Positions 23,341 to 26,832 of a stretch of 64,000 nucleotides of DNA are shown one piece after another; position 1 is the stretch's first letter; every line of letters begins with the position of its first letter. The notes below the pieces were generated by a model, which had not been told where the DNA came from, ran no database searches, and worked only from the letters and a program-made list of their open reading frames with translations. The stretch lies in assembly GCA_042095055.1 (NCBI GenBank), contig JBELBZ010000007.1:20673-84672 (forward strand). Direction: 5' to 3'. This DNA is from Crocinitomicaceae bacterium. Its GTDB lineage: Bacteria > Bacteroidota > Bacteroidia > Flavobacteriales_D > Sanyastnellaceae. A program made the translations under genes and the position numbers.

Positions 23341-24792
23341 ATGAAATGGATTCCGGGCTTGTCCCTTCTTTGCTGCATGGCTCCAGCGATTTTGGCAGCG
23401 CAAGACGTGACGTTTCACGCCGACGTGGCCCCCATTGTATTCAATCATTGTACTTCATGTCATCGGCCTGGGGAAATTGGCCCCATGCCTTTCACGAATT
23501 ATGGTGAGGTCGCGGCTTACGGGGAGTTCATCGAGTACGTCACATCCATAGGATATATGCCTCCGTGGTCACCTGATGCGTCCTACAGTCATTTTGTGGG
23601 CGAGAATGTCCTGACTGCGGGTCAATTGGAAACGCTCAGCGCATGGGTGGCCGCAGGCAAACCCGAAGGCGACCCCGCGGACAATCCCGGTCTACCCGAA
23701 TTTCCGGACGGAAGTCAAATTGGCACTCCTGACCATGTGCTCGCGATGGACCAGCCGTACACGCATGCAGGCGACATGTCCGAGCAGTACCAGGTCTTCG
23801 TCTTGCCTTCGGGGTTCGATGCGGCGGCTTCCATTCGTGCACTTGAGGTACAGCCCGGAAACCACAATGTGGCTCACCACGCCATTCTCGGTCTGGATGT
23901 CTCGGGAACAGCCACTGTCCTCGATGCTGCTGACCCGGCCCCGGGCTACGAGAGCTTTGGCGGTTTTGGCTTCAATGCTGAGAGCTCCTTCTTTGGAGCG
24001 TGGGTTCCCGGAGCCCTTCCTGTGGCATATCCTCCGGGCATTGGCCGCACGATTCCAGCGGGGGCTGACGTGCTGTTGCAGATGCACTACGGCCCTTCTT
24101 CGGTGGACGAAGTGGACCAGACCGAGATCAATGTGTTCCTGTCCAATGAGCCCATTGAGCGTGAAGTATTGACGGTCATCATGGGGCCCCAGCACCTCGA
24201 TGCGCCTTTTGTCCTGCCGCCCAATCAAGTCTCGTCGTTCCATGGCACCATGCCGGTGACCGCAGATGTCAGCCTGCTGAGTATCGCGCCCCACAGTCAC
24301 CTGATCGGGTCCTCTTGGAAGGTGTACGCCACTTCCCCGGGCAATGCAGACACCATCCCTTTGATTTCAATACCCTCTTGGGATTTCAATTGGCAGGGGT
24401 ATTTCACCTTCCCGCACCTGACAAAGGTTCCTCAAGGCTACACGCTCCACGGTGAAGCCACTTATGACAACACTGCCGACAACCCATTCAATCCAAGCGA
24501 CCCGCCACAGTGGGTGTATTTCGGTGAAGAGACCCAAGACGAGATGTTTTTTGTCTTCATCGATTTGGTGGCCTTTGAAGAGGGCGATGAAGAGATTGCA
24601 CTCGGGCCAGATACGGCGTCCTGCGATGGAGACCTCACGGGTGACAACCTCGTGGGGGTTTCTGACGCCCTGCTTTTGCTGAGTGAATTTGGATGTCAAG
24701 TCGGATGCACTTTGGATTTGGACGGTGACAATGCAGTGACCGTTTCAGACGTGCTGTTTTTGTTGGGTCAATACGGGGCCACATGCAATTGA
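23341..24792 (+). CDS. secreted heme-c (CxxCH) + PHM/DBH-like copper monooxygenase fusion, dockerin-like C-terminal module
   Basis: Start ATG 23341 ([21 protein letters not shown]). CTSCH at 23449-23463. HH (NVAHHAILG), LLQMHYG, HSH (24292-24300, IAPHSHLIG) and DEMFFVF match the CuH/CuM ligand pattern of peptidylglycine hydroxylating monooxygenase. Confidence 0.7.
   Translation: [483 protein letters not shown]
24622..24789 (+). other. dockerin-like 4-Cys double DxDGDG C-terminal module
   Basis: [56 protein letters not shown], then stop. Confidence 0.8.
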
Positions 24793-25262
24793 TGCTGGCC
24801 GCCCCATTGTTGCGGGTGGTGCTGTTTTTGGCCCCCCTTTGCCCCATCTGCCAGAACATGTGTTATGATTTGCGCCTTTTGGAGGAGGAATTTGCCGATG
24901 CTCCTGTTGAATTTGTGGGGGTATTTCCCAATGCATCGACCAAGGCCCACCAAATGGCTGAATTTCGAACGACCTATGGCCTCAACATGCCATGTGTTGG
25001 CGACACGGCCCAATGGGCAGCCTTGCTGGGCGCCCGGTGGACCCCAGAAGCGTTCATTTTAGATGAGCACGACAGCGTCTTGTATCAAGGCCGCATCAAT
25101 GACCGGTACTTCGCACCGGGTCGGCGGAGAAACAAGACCCGAAGTCGAGATTTGAGAAATGCCATTTCAGAAGCGTTGCTGGGACAAGAGGTTCAGGTCC
25201 CCCTGACCGAAGCTGTCGGTTGCCCCATTGAAGGATTGAAAATTCTCCAACCTCAGCATTGA
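24783..25262 (+). CDS. thioredoxin-fold redoxin (CxxC)
   Basis: CPIC at 24840-24851; ...WTPEAFILDEHDSVLYQGRINDRY... resembles TlpA/AhpC-TSA-like redoxins. Start overlaps the upstream stop by 10 nt. No obvious signal peptide. Confidence 0.6.
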   Translation: MQLMLAAPLLRVVLFLAPLCPICQNMCYDLRLLEEEFADAPVEFVGVFPNASTKAHQMAEFRTTYGLNMPCVGDTAQWAALLGARWTPEAFILDEHDSVLYQGRINDRYFAPGRRRNKTRSRDLRNAISEALLGQEVQVPLTEAVGCPIEGLKILQPQH

Positions 25263-25302
25263 TCTCATCTGCACTTTGTTTTTCTCGTTTTAATTTCCAA
25301 CC

Positions 25303-26832
25303 ATGAAGACAGCGCTATCCTTTGCCCTCCTGCTCGCTCTTGGAGCAACCACAGGTTGGGGTCAGGTCACCTATCACGCCGATGTGGCGCCCATCATCCA
25401 CAATGCTTGTATGGAGTGTCACCGTACTGGAGAAATTGGCCCCATGCCTTTCACCAATTACGAGGAGGTGTCGGCATATGGCCCTTTCATCGAGTATGTG
25501 ACTTCAATCGGCTACATGCCGCCTTGGACACCCGATGCCGACTACAGTCATTTCGTGGGTGAGCGGGTGTTGTCCGCGGAAGAAATCGAAACCATCAGCG
25601 CATGGGTGGATGCCGACATGCCCGAAGGAAACCCTGCCGACAATCCTGGAGCACCTTTTTTTCCAGAGGGAAGCCAAATTGGCGAGCCCGACTTCGTGTT
25701 TAGCATGTCGGAGCCCTACGCCCATGGCGGGGACATGACCGACCAATATCAGGTCTTTGTAATGCCCACTGGGTTTGAACAGGACATGACCGTGAGGGCA
25801 CTCGAAGTGCGCCCTGGCAATGGGGCCATCGCGCATCACGCTGTCCTCGGTTTGGACATTGAAGGCGTTGCAGAAAACCTGGACGCCCAAGATCCTGAAC
25901 CAGGGTATGAAAGCTTTGGTGACTTTGGGTTTGATGCTTACCAAAACTTCTTTGGTGCTTGGGTACCCGGTGCGCAAACCTTGGTCTACCCCGAAGGCAT
26001 TGGCAGGGTCATTCCCGCACAAAGTGACCTCTTGATGCAGATGCATTACGGGCCCAATGCAGCGGAGGAGTCTGACCAAACCGAAGTCAATGTGTTCTTG
26101 ACGGAGGGGCCCATCGACAGGGAAGTGGAGACAGGAATCATGGGGCCGTGGACCTTGGGTGAACCGTTCTTCATTCCCCCCAATCAAGTCAAAACCTTTC
26201 ACGGCACCTACAACATCCCTGTGGACCTGAGCTTGATCAGCATTGCTCCGCACAGCCACCTGATTGGAAACTCATGGGAAGTGTTCGCCACAAGCCCCAA
26301 CAACCAAGACACCATCCCATTGATTTCCATACCCGCTTGGGACTTCAATTGGCAGGGCTTTTTCACATTCCCATACATGACCAAAGTGCCGGGTGGTTAT
26401 ACCCTGCATGGCATTGCGTCCTATGACAACACCTCTGACAATCCGTTCAATCCAAACGACCCTCCTGTCATGATTGAATACGGTGACAATACAGGTGACG
26501 AGATGTTTTTTGTCTTCTTCGACTACGTGCTCTACGAGGCGGGTGACGAGGACATTTCGCTGGAGACCCCCTTACTTTCCAGCGTAGAGCCTCTGGAACG
26601 CGAGGCGCCGGGCGTTACACTTCAGCCCAACCCCGCCTCAAATCGGATTCAGTTGTTGGCCCATCCACAATTTGTAGGGTCCTCCTGGTCATTGCGCGAT
26701 TTGGGTGGTCGGGAAGTCATGTCAGGGCAATTCAACTCAGGCAATGACCGAATATTGACCGGTGCCCTCCCGGATGGCGTTTACCTGTTTCAGGGCCCTC
26801 AGGGCACAGAACGGGTGGTCATCCAGCATTGA
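25303..26832 (+). CDS. secreted heme-c + PHM/DBH-like copper monooxygenase fusion, T9SS type-A CTD (paralog of 23341..24792)
   Basis: Signal [21 protein letters not shown]; CMECH at 25408-25422; [32 protein letters not shown]. C-terminus [15 protein letters not shown]...[18 protein letters not shown]. Confidence 0.7.
   Translation: [509 protein letters not shown]
26611..26829 (+). other. T9SS type-A C-terminal sorting domain
   Basis: [16 protein letters not shown]...[13 protein letters not shown]...[21 protein letters not shown]. Confidence 0.75.

What the first reader, a model, noticed from the sequence alone, without database searches (positions are those of the whole stretch)
23341..26832. 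Natural tail-swap: two paralogous oxygenases differ essentially only in dockerin-like versus T9SS C-terminal domain
The proteins from 23341..24792 and 25303..26832 align collinearly from the mature N-terminus ([33 protein letters not shown] vs [33 protein letters not shown]). The alignment runs to ...[22 protein letters not shown] vs ...[22 protein letters not shown], and by eye roughly two thirds of positions are identical. After that point (about 24606 and about 26564) the similarity stops. Copy 1 continues into the 56-aa dockerin-like module. Copy 2 continues into a short linker plus a canonical T9SS CTD ([15 protein letters not shown]...). Two tails on the same passenger, encoded 500 bp apart, argue that the tails are modular and serve alternative localisation fates for one enzyme activity.
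Basis: seen in the sequence. Interest (0 to 1): 0.8.

Follow-up and report, generated by a model that had tools for sequence, protein, structure and literature searches.

The report
Twin copper enzymes with swapped tails
Two neighbouring genes of an uncultured marine flavobacterium encode the same secreted haem-and-copper oxygenase, one ending in a type IX secretion signal and the other in a four-cysteine dockerin module; this swap is old, conserved and happened at least twice, and it raises the question of how dockerin-tailed proteins leave the cell.

Summary
Window 23341-24792 (483 aa) and 25303-26832 (509 aa) are 68% identical over 399 ungapped residues, then become unrelated.

- **Passenger:** signal peptide, a CxxCH cytochrome c domain, and a PHM/DBH-fold domain in which all six presumed copper ligands are invariant.
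- **Copy 1 tail:** a true dockerin fold with four invariant cysteines. It matches NCBIfam "GC-type dockerin" weakly.
- **Copy 2 tail:** a borderline-scoring T9SS type A CTD.
- **Selection:** both genes and both tails are under strong purifying selection.
- **Conservation:** both forms exist as separate ortholog sets in many marine Flavobacteriales MAGs, usually in the order dockerin copy, thioredoxin-like gene, T9SS copy.
- **Direction and recurrence:** a core-only tree shows the T9SS tail is ancestral. The dockerin tail arose in two separate duplicate pairs.
- **Second family:** a VPS10/BNR protein in the window shows the same replacement.
- **Usage:** six proteins in this 64-kb window end in this dockerin.

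The two tails are not equivalent. Elsewhere the dockerin sits just upstream of a T9SS CTD in one polypeptide, so it is a docking module and the CTD is the export signal.

Different localisation of the two paralogs is plausible but unproven. No partner and no outer-membrane route for dockerin-only proteins was found.

The parts
23341..23400 (+). Copy 1 signal peptide ([21 protein letters not shown])
   Evidence: Inferred from the sequence. It is SPI-type, has Q at +1 and lacks a conserved lipobox; orthologs show the same pattern.
23401..23670 (+). Copy 1 cytochrome c-like domain (CxxCH at aa 37-41; invariant M73)
   Evidence: C37, C40, H41 and M73 are invariant in 52 homologs. The Cytochrome_CBB3 hit is sub-threshold (16.6 bits) but is found in 49 of 52 members.
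23713..24603 (+). Copy 1 PHM/DBH-fold two-copper monooxygenase-like domain (H179 H180 H249; H318 H320 M402)
   Evidence: AF2 model with pLDDT 83. Foldseek against PDB puts PHM 3mll at E 4.8e-14 and DBH 4zel at E 8e-13. The ligand residues are invariant. Cu2_monoox_C gives weak hits in 27 of 52 members.
24604..24621 (+). Copy 1 linker GPDTAS; similarity to copy 2 ends just before it
24622..24792 (+). Copy 1 four-Cys 'GC-type' dockerin tail (aa 428-483) plus stop codon
   Evidence: NF041540 scores 18.7 bits over the whole profile, against a cutoff of 29. The AF2 tail model has pLDDT 94. The Foldseek top 26 hits are all dockerins; 2y3n_B has TM 0.88 and rmsd 0.9 A. dN/dS is 0.07.
24783..25262 (+). 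Thioredoxin-fold CPIC protein (Redoxin/AhpC-TSA), overlapping copy 1's stop codon by 10 nt
   Evidence: Pfam Redoxin scores 36.6 bits and AhpC-TSA 35.3 bits. A homolog lies next to the enzyme gene in about 55 of 78 loci.
25303..25362 (+). Copy 2 signal peptide ([21 protein letters not shown])
   Evidence: Inferred from the sequence and from orthologs.
25363..26562 (+). Copy 2 cytochrome c plus PHM-like core
   Evidence: 68% identical to copy 1 over 399 aa. The same residues are invariant. dN/dS is 0.018 against the L001 ortholog.
26563..26625 (+). Copy 2 linker ([21 protein letters not shown]...)
26626..26832 (+). Copy 2 T9SS type A C-terminal sorting domain (aa 442-509) plus stop codon
   Evidence: TIGR04183 scores 24.4 bits on the tail alone (cutoff 23) and 19.9 bits in the full protein. 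PF18962 scores 22.3 bits (cutoff 27). 32 of 52 family members hit PF18962, best E 1.9e-13. dN/dS is 0.05.
18948..19652 (-). 234-aa MopE-motif protein ending in the same GC-dockerin
   Evidence: NF041540 scores 30.9 bits, above the cutoff. PF11617 scores 29 bits. The gene is syntenic in clade A loci.
29911..33186 (-). 1091-aa VPS10/BNR protein ending in a GC-dockerin; the second family showing a CTD-to-dockerin replacement
   Evidence: NF041540 scores 32.5 bits. 39 homolog clusters (33-100% identical) are dockerin-tailed, whereas more distant homologs carry PF18962.
33254..36202 (-). 982-aa beta-helix protein ending in a GC-dockerin
36346..40926 (-). 1526-aa protein ending in a GC-dockerin
50772..53648 (+). 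958-aa metallopeptidase-like protein ending in a GC-dockerin
60924..62822 (-). Kelch-repeat protein with a clear T9SS CTD; shows that this genome uses T9SS
   Evidence: PF18962 scores 38 bits against a cutoff of 27.

Best explanation
Window 23341-26832 is a three-gene cluster from an uncultured marine Flavobacteriales bacterium. The gene order is enzyme copy 1, a thioredoxin-like CPIC protein, then enzyme copy 2.

The two enzyme genes are ancient tandem paralogs of an uncharacterised secreted redox enzyme. Each has a Sec signal peptide, a mono-haem cytochrome c domain and a PHM/DBH-fold two-copper monooxygenase domain. The built-in cytochrome presumably supplies the electrons that ascorbate supplies in PHM and DBH; this step is inferred.

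The ancestral form of the family ends in a T9SS type A CTD. After duplication, one copy exchanged the linker and CTD, exactly at the end of the catalytic domain, for a 56-residue dockerin. This dockerin has two Ca-loop/helix repeats, each bracketed by cysteines (the 'GC-type'). Many other large secreted proteins of the same genome carry the same module at their C-terminus.

What is shown: homology of the cores, the identities of the folds, the direction and recurrence of the swap, and purifying selection on both tails.

What is inferred: the CTD copy is exported through the T9SS, and its CTD is removed on the cell surface. The dockerin copy is held by a calcium-dependent protein-protein contact with an unidentified envelope partner. 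One enzymatic activity would then be placed in two different locations or complexes. How dockerin-only proteins cross the outer membrane is unknown.
For: - Core homology and tail break.
- Invariant CxxCH, M73, HH, H, HxH and M.
- PHM/DBH fold. Weak Cu2_monoox_C hits in 27 of 52 members and cytochrome c hits in 49 of 52.
- Tail identities: dockerin_GC and TIGR04183; dockerin fold with TM 0.88 to 2y3n_B.
- Two ortholog sets, each with a fixed tail. Conserved tandem order in clade A loci.
- The T9SS tail is ancestral. Two dockerin/T9SS sister pairs each have 100/100 bootstrap support, and monophyly of all dockerin copies has 0/100.
- dN/dS is 0.02-0.07 for cores and tails, and there are no gene-conversion tracts.
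- Only 2 fixed core differences separate the paralog types.
- Six dockerin-tailed proteins occur in 64 kb, and all 55 dockerin modules in the window and loci are C-terminal.
- A second passenger family shows the same replacement.
- The dockerin is a passenger module on bona fide T9SS cargo, so it acts beyond the outer membrane: P0126, P0238 and L080.
Against: - No cohesin or other partner was found in the 24 window proteins scanned.
- Copy 1's tail scores below the NF041540 cutoff (18.7 bits against 29). Copy 2's CTD is borderline.
- T9SS machinery genes are not in the window.
- No localisation data exist, and the enzyme's substrate is unknown.
- Pfam Cu2 monooxygenase models are not met at their thresholds.
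- The neighbouring thioredoxin-like protein has no visible signal peptide in this clade. That is hard to reconcile with a role outside the cytoplasm.
- Two independent swaps could instead be one swap followed by gene conversion in a stem lineage.
Confidence: 0.55

Rival explanations
1. The GC-dockerin is itself an outer-membrane export signal. It could be a third class of T9SS C-terminal signal, or the signal of another secretion system. On this view the swap changes the route rather than adding a docking function.
For: - It replaces the T9SS CTD at the same junction in at least two passenger families and at least three events.
- In this lineage it always lies 0-3 residues from the C-terminus.
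- Dockerin-only proteins show no other export signal, yet they look extracellular: beta-helix, BNR/VPS10 and TSP3 domains.
Against: - It co-occurs with a true T9SS CTD in single polypeptides, where it is internal and the CTD is last (P0126, P0238 and two L080 genes).
- It can sit directly after the signal peptide or in the middle of a protein (P0173, P0233, P0177).
- Its fold is a helical Ca-binding dockerin, unlike the beta-sandwich CTDs.
Confidence: 0.15
2. The dockerin-tailed copy never leaves the periplasm. Losing the CTD retains it there, docked to a periplasmic or inner-leaflet partner, so the pair serves the periplasm and the cell surface respectively.
For: - Copy 1 has a Sec signal peptide but no recognised outer-membrane export signal.
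- Haem c attachment, copper loading and disulfide formation at four cysteines are all periplasmic processes (established knowledge).
- An electron supply for a cytochrome c domain is easier to imagine in the periplasm.
Against: - The other dockerin-tailed proteins of the genome are 1000-1500-aa adhesin- or hydrolase-like proteins. Their relatives are T9SS cargo.
- The dockerin occurs as a passenger module on T9SS cargo, which means it is used outside the cell.
Confidence: 0.2
3. The tail difference is neutral domain shuffling with no functional consequence, or one copy is decaying.
For: Domain shuffling at linkers is common. The cores show almost no paralog-specific change.
Against: - Both tails have dN/dS of 0.05-0.07.
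- Each tail is fixed across dozens of 90%-identity clusters, down to about 50% core identity.
- Both ORFs are intact and keep all ligand residues.
- The same outcome arose twice.
Confidence: 0.03

Closest known systems
Cellulosomal dockerins (type I/II; Pfam PF00404), e.g. the Pseudobacteroides cellulosolvens dockerin in PDB 2y3n
   Same: Same fold (TM 0.88/0.83, rmsd 0.9 A over 56 columns). Both have duplicated 22-24-residue Ca-loop plus helix repeats with D-x-[DNT]-x-D...D, and both usually sit at the C-terminus of secreted enzymes.
   Different: The host is a Gram-negative marine Flavobacteriales bacterium. Four invariant cysteines bracket each repeat. The cargo is not cellulolytic. No cohesin was found. 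PF00404 is mostly sub-threshold.
NCBIfam NF041540 'GC-type dockerin domain-anchored protein'
   Same: All six window tails align over the whole 67-position profile, and two pass the cutoff.
   Different: Copy 1's own tail scores 18.7 bits against a cutoff of 29. No paper mentions the family, so the name carries no tested mechanism.
T9SS type A C-terminal domain (TIGR04183 / PF18962), as on Porphyromonas gingivalis gingipains and Flavobacterium johnsoniae cargo
   Same: Copy 2 and the ancestral family end in it. It lies at the extreme C-terminus behind a linker, on a protein with a Sec signal peptide.
   Different: The window copy scores at the borderline. Experimental CTD swaps onto reporters are known, but I am not aware of a reported natural paralog pair with CTD versus dockerin (own knowledge; searches found none).
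Peptidylglycine alpha-hydroxylating monooxygenase and dopamine beta-hydroxylase (copper type II ascorbate-dependent monooxygenases)
   Same: Two-domain beta-sandwich fold. The HH...H and HxH...M ligand pattern has similar spacing. The motifs QMHYG, PHSHLIG and DEM resemble PHM's, recalled from memory.
   Different: About 16% sequence identity, and Pfam thresholds are not met. The family is bacterial, is fused to a c-type cytochrome domain, is paired with a thioredoxin-like gene and carries a secretion or docking tail. The substrate is unknown.

Membership tests
T9SS type A CTD (TIGR04183/PF18962), copy 2 | HMM score at or above the curated cutoff | tested here: inconclusive
   TIGR04183 scores 19.9 bits in the full protein (below 23) and 24.4 bits on the tail alone (above 23). 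PF18962 scores 17.8 and 22.3 bits (below 27). Orthologs and other family members hit PF18962 with E down to 1.9e-13.
T9SS type A CTD, copy 2 | Located at the extreme C-terminus of a protein with a Sec signal peptide | tested here: met
   The domain spans aa 442-509 of 509. The signal peptide was read from the sequence.
T9SS type A CTD, copy 2 | The genome encodes the T9SS machinery (SprA, PorV, PorU and others) | not testable with these tools
   No such gene lies in the 64-kb window. The only evidence is indirect: another cargo protein with a 38-bit CTD.
Dockerin (PF00404) / GC-type dockerin (NF041540), copy 1 | HMM score at or above the curated cutoff | tested here: not met
   NF041540 scores 18.7 bits against 29, and PF00404 scores 13 bits against 22.9. 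Sister tails in the same window pass (30.9 and 32.5 bits).
Dockerin, copy 1 | Dockerin fold: two Ca-binding loop-helix repeats | tested here: met
   AF2 model with pLDDT 94. The top 26 Foldseek PDB hits are dockerins, and 2y3n_B has TM 0.88. The loops [12 protein letters not shown] and [12 protein letters not shown] are visible in the sequence.
Dockerin, copy 1 | A cohesin (or other) binding partner exists | not testable with these tools
   No cohesin hit in the 24 window proteins scanned. The whole genome could not be scanned.
Copper type II ascorbate-dependent monooxygenase (PF01082 + PF03712) | HMM scores at or above the cutoffs | tested here: not met
   PF03712 has a best E of 5.6e-05 and hits 27 of 52 members, all below 23 bits. 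PF01082 hits 3 of 52 members.
Copper type II ascorbate-dependent monooxygenase | PHM/DBH two-domain fold | tested here: met
   Foldseek gives E 4.8e-14, probability 1.0 and TMt 0.67 to 3mll. DBH 4zel is also hit.
Copper type II ascorbate-dependent monooxygenase | CuH site (His, His, His) and CuM site (His, His, Met) conserved | tested here: met
   H179, H180, H249, H318, H320 and M402 are invariant in 52 sequences. Their equivalence to the PHM ligands is inferred from order, spacing and motifs; no residue-level superposition was made.
Copper type II ascorbate-dependent monooxygenase | Ascorbate-dependent hydroxylation activity | not testable with these tools
   This needs biochemistry.
c-type cytochrome | CxxCH haem-attachment motif with a distal ligand | tested here: met
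   C37, C40, H41 and M73 are invariant. Pfam Cytochrome_CBB3 is sub-threshold (16.6 bits against 27) but is hit by 49 of 52 members.

The most novel reading that the evidence does not exclude
In a lineage of uncultured marine Flavobacteriales, a disulfide-stapled dockerin has broadly taken over the C-terminus of proteins whose relatives are T9SS cargo. These dockerin-only proteins would still reach the cell surface by a route not yet described. One possibility is docking in the periplasm onto a CTD-bearing partner, such as the poly-dockerin/CTD proteins like P0126, and riding through the T9SS as a complex. Another is assembly into a cellulosome-like surface complex in a Gram-negative bacterium.
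Probability: 0.25. Interest if true: 0.8.

Novelty: new variant of a known kind. Interest (0 to 1): 0.6.

Why it matters
**Secretion and surface display.** T9SS CTDs and dockerins are each well-known modular tags. Here evolution has repeatedly substituted one for the other on the same passenger, and a whole uncultured marine lineage uses a four-cysteine dockerin about as often as T9SS tails. This gives a clean natural pair for asking three questions:
- What does the GC-type dockerin bind?
- How do dockerin-only proteins cross the outer membrane of a Bacteroidota cell?
- Do Gram-negative marine bacteria build cohesin-dockerin-like surface assemblies?

**The passenger enzyme.** It is an unannotated family, with at least 547 matches among GTDB species-representative genomes. 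It fuses a cytochrome c domain to a PHM/DBH-type copper monooxygenase and is paired with a thioredoxin-like gene. It is therefore a candidate for a bacterial PHM-like oxygenase that does not depend on ascorbate.

Tried and rejected
- **PDB sequence searches** with copy 1 and with the family profile found only the tails (dockerin 2y3n_B; T9SS CTD-bearing 7pzj and 8glj). They found nothing for the core. Fold search was needed.
- **The word-indexed homolog search** with the tail profile returned almost only short gene fragments without names. It gave no usable taxonomic picture beyond one Planctomycetota-labelled hit.
- **Literature searches** on 'GC-type dockerin', dockerin with T9SS or Flavobacteriales, and PHM-like bacterial copper enzymes found nothing relevant.
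- **A lipoprotein route** for copy 1 was considered because of the 'LLCC' in its signal peptide. It was rejected because the cysteine is not conserved in orthologs.
- **Recent gene conversion** between the tandem copies was rejected. The maximum identity in 90-nt windows is 79%, and the longest identical run is 23 nt.
- **Pseudogenisation** was rejected.
- **The context of the poly-dockerin protein P0126** could not be examined, because its contig is only 1.4 kb.
- **Counting dockerin tails in flanking DNA** of T9SS-only lineages gave almost none. This is weak evidence, because the clade A flanks are syntenic and so represent only two independent genes.

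
Full report
**Observation.** The window holds two intact ORFs on the + strand: 23341-24792 (483 aa) and 25303-26832 (509 aa). BLASTP aligns aa 23-421 of the first with aa 22-420 of the second. The alignment has no gaps, 273/399 identities (68%) and 82% positives, and nothing significant follows it. 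Between the two genes lies a 159-aa ORF (24783-25262) that overlaps copy 1's stop codon by 10 nt. It is a thioredoxin-fold protein with a CPIC motif (Pfam Redoxin 36.6 bits, AhpC-TSA 35.3 bits).

**The passenger.** In an alignment of 52 homologs the following residues are invariant (copy 1 numbering): C37, C40 and H41 (CxxCH), M73, H179, H180, H249, H318, H320 and M402. An AlphaFold2 model (mean pLDDT 83) was searched against the PDB. It hits 31 peptidylglycine alpha-hydroxylating monooxygenase entries and human dopamine beta-hydroxylase with E values between 5e-14 and 2e-10 and probability 1.0; the next hits are unrelated jelly-rolls at E > 1e-5. The HH...H and HxH...M pattern and its spacing match the CuH and CuM sites of that family. 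This mapping rests on order, spacing and remembered motifs, not on a residue-level superposition.

At the sequence level only weak, sub-threshold Pfam hits appear. Cu2_monoox_C is hit by 27 of 52 members (best E 5.6e-05) and Cytochrome_CBB3 by 49 of 52. Public sources call these proteins 'hypothetical protein' or 'mono/diheme cytochrome c family protein'. Both copies have SPI-type signal peptides with Gln at +1 and no conserved lipobox. More exactly, this is an uncharacterised secreted cytochrome c-PHM-like copper enzyme, genetically paired with a thioredoxin-like protein in about 55 of 78 loci.

**The two tails.**
- *Copy 2 tail.* It reaches TIGR04183 (T9SS type A) at 24.4 bits when scanned alone (cutoff 23) but only 19.9 bits within the full protein. 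PF18962 stays below its threshold. The family as a whole clearly carries this domain: 32 of 52 members hit PF18962, best E 1.9e-13. The family profile also finds CTD-bearing PDB chains.
- *Copy 1 tail.* It aligns over the whole NCBIfam NF041540 'GC-type dockerin' profile at 18.7 bits (cutoff 29). Two of five sister tails in the window pass the cutoff, at 30.9 and 32.5 bits. A tail alignment shows four invariant cysteines bracketing two Ca-loop/helix repeats. The AF2 model of the tail (pLDDT 94) superposes on the dockerin of PDB 2y3n with TM 0.88/0.83 and rmsd 0.9 A, and the top 26 PDB hits are all dockerins.

The tails are thus unrelated modules with different folds.

**Both tails are maintained by selection.** Against the 90%-identical ortholog pair in the closed MAG OX044365.1 (L001), dN/dS is 0.02-0.04 for the cores and 0.05-0.07 for both tails. 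The paralogs themselves have saturated dS (2.7). They show no conversion tracts: the maximum identity in 90-nt windows is 79%, and the longest identical run is 23 nt.

The protein database holds two ortholog sets. About 65 clusters of roughly 485 aa all end in the dockerin. The clusters of roughly 508-535 aa end in a T9SS CTD. In species-representative genomes the family gave 547 confirmed matches, nearly all in uncultured marine Flavobacteriales or 'Crocinitomicaceae' MAGs. The order dockerin copy, thioredoxin gene, T9SS copy recurs in L001-L011, L014, L019, L021 and L022.

Across 21 dockerin-type and 15 T9SS-type orthologs, only 2 core positions are fixed differently and 5 nearly so, out of about 400. 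The type-defining difference really is the tail.

**Direction and recurrence of the swap.** A neighbour-joining tree of the core only, with 100 bootstraps, shows T9SS-tailed proteins throughout the tree and two separate dockerin/T9SS sister pairs. Clade A is the window's lineage. Clade B comprises L024-L027 and L042, where the two genes are about 10 nt apart with no thioredoxin gene between them. Each pair is monophyletic in 100 of 100 replicates, and a clade uniting all dockerin copies appears in 0 of 100.

The simplest reading is that the CTD is ancestral and that duplication followed by replacement happened twice. One swap followed by stem-lineage gene conversion cannot be excluded. Within each clade the paralog groups are reciprocally monophyletic, so no conversion has occurred since those clades radiated.

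**The dockerin in the wider genome.** Six proteins in this 64-kb window end in the same module. They are a MopE-motif protein, this enzyme, a VPS10/BNR protein, a beta-helix protein, a 1526-aa protein and a metallopeptidase-like protein. About five others have T9SS-like tails, one of which scores a clear 38 bits. All 55 modules found in the window and loci lie at the C-terminus.

A profile of the tail finds 22,700 clusters at 50% identity with E <= 1e-3 and 1,476 with E <= 1e-10 among 1.84 billion representatives. The four-Cys form nearly always ends 0-3 residues from the protein end.

For the VPS10/BNR protein (29911-33186) the same replacement pattern holds. Its 39 homolog clusters (33-100% identical) all carry the dockerin, while more distant Bacteroidota homologs (<= 34% identical) mostly end in PF18962.

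**The tails are not interchangeable equivalents.** The dockerin also occurs directly after a signal peptide (P0173), internally (P0233), and in the same polypeptide as a bona fide T9SS CTD:
- P0126 consists of four GC-dockerins (77.9 bits) plus a CTD (44.1 bits).
- P0238 has a dockerin (32.9 bits) about 45 residues upstream of a CTD (45.1 bits).
- In locus L080, three tandem CotH/LTD paralogs end respectively in dockerin-linker-CTD, dockerin-linker-CTD, and dockerin only.

The CTD is therefore the export signal, and the dockerin is a passenger module that works beyond the outer membrane. The L080 series also suggests a route from CTD through dockerin+CTD to dockerin only.

**Mechanism and rivals.** My best reading (confidence about 0.55) is one enzyme activity deployed in two ways. 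The CTD copy leaves through the T9SS. The dockerin copy is held by a calcium-dependent contact with an unidentified partner.

Two main rivals remain:
- The dockerin-only copy stays in the periplasm (0.2).
- The dockerin is itself an export tag (0.15). The co-occurrence data and the N-terminal occurrences disfavour this.

Neutral shuffling or gene decay is essentially excluded. No cohesin was found in the 24 window proteins scanned, and the whole genome could not be scanned.

**Novelty.** T9SS CTD modularity and dockerin modularity are both established. The GC-type dockerin exists as an NCBIfam model, but no paper in the searched library mentions it. Three things are new here:
- a conserved, recurrent natural CTD-to-dockerin replacement on identical passengers;
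- heavy use of a four-Cys dockerin in a marine Gram-negative lineage;
- an unannotated cytochrome c-PHM-like enzyme family.

I rate this a new variant of known kinds, with interest 0.6. Interest would be higher if dockerin-only proteins prove to reach the surface by a new route.

Noticed in passing
L080 3664-18047 (GCA_964429805.1, contig CAYSDH010000025.1): Three tandem CotH/LTD paralogs. Two end in GC-dockerin, a ~45-aa linker and a T9SS type A CTD. The third ends right after the GC-dockerin. This looks like a stepwise series from CTD-bearing to dockerin-only.
   Followed up: partly
P0126 (L079 255-1337) and P0133: Small secreted proteins made only of a signal peptide, four or five GC-dockerin-like modules and a T9SS type A CTD. 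They could be surface scaffolds or adaptors for the dockerin system. The P0126 contig is too short to give any context.
   Followed up: partly
window 24783-25262 (+) and about 55 related loci: A thioredoxin-fold CPIC gene is a conserved neighbour of the cytochrome c/PHM-like enzyme. Distant versions have a signal peptide. The version in the window's clade starts directly at the first beta strand, with no visible signal peptide, which is odd for the partner of a secreted enzyme.
   Followed up: partly
window 18948-19652 (-): A 234-aa protein with a MopE-type putative copper-binding motif (PF11617, 29 bits) and a GC-dockerin tail. It lies about 3.7 kb upstream of the copper-enzyme pair, and this position is conserved in clade A loci. 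It might be a copper-supply partner.
   Followed up: no
window 41079-41528 (+): A 149-aa secreted protein that ends in a single half-dockerin repeat (CLADIVPDGIVGTNDLLQLLVEFGVVCSE; 23.7 bits to the tail HMM).
   Followed up: no
window 29911-40926 (-): Three consecutive giant genes (1091, 982 and 1526 aa; VPS10/BNR, beta-helix, and NosD/TSP3-like) all end in the GC-dockerin.
   Followed up: partly
window 47421-54712 (+): A cluster of four genes in the same orientation: a TonB-dependent receptor, a DUF4249 protein, a GC-dockerin-tailed metallopeptidase-like protein and an SGL-like protein with a T9SS-like tail. Both tail types therefore occur in one apparent uptake locus.
   Followed up: no
window 23310-23343: TATATTTC, close to the Bacteroidota -7 promoter motif TAnnTTTG, lies 5 nt upstream of copy 1's ATG. 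This hints at a very short or absent 5' leader.
   Followed up: no
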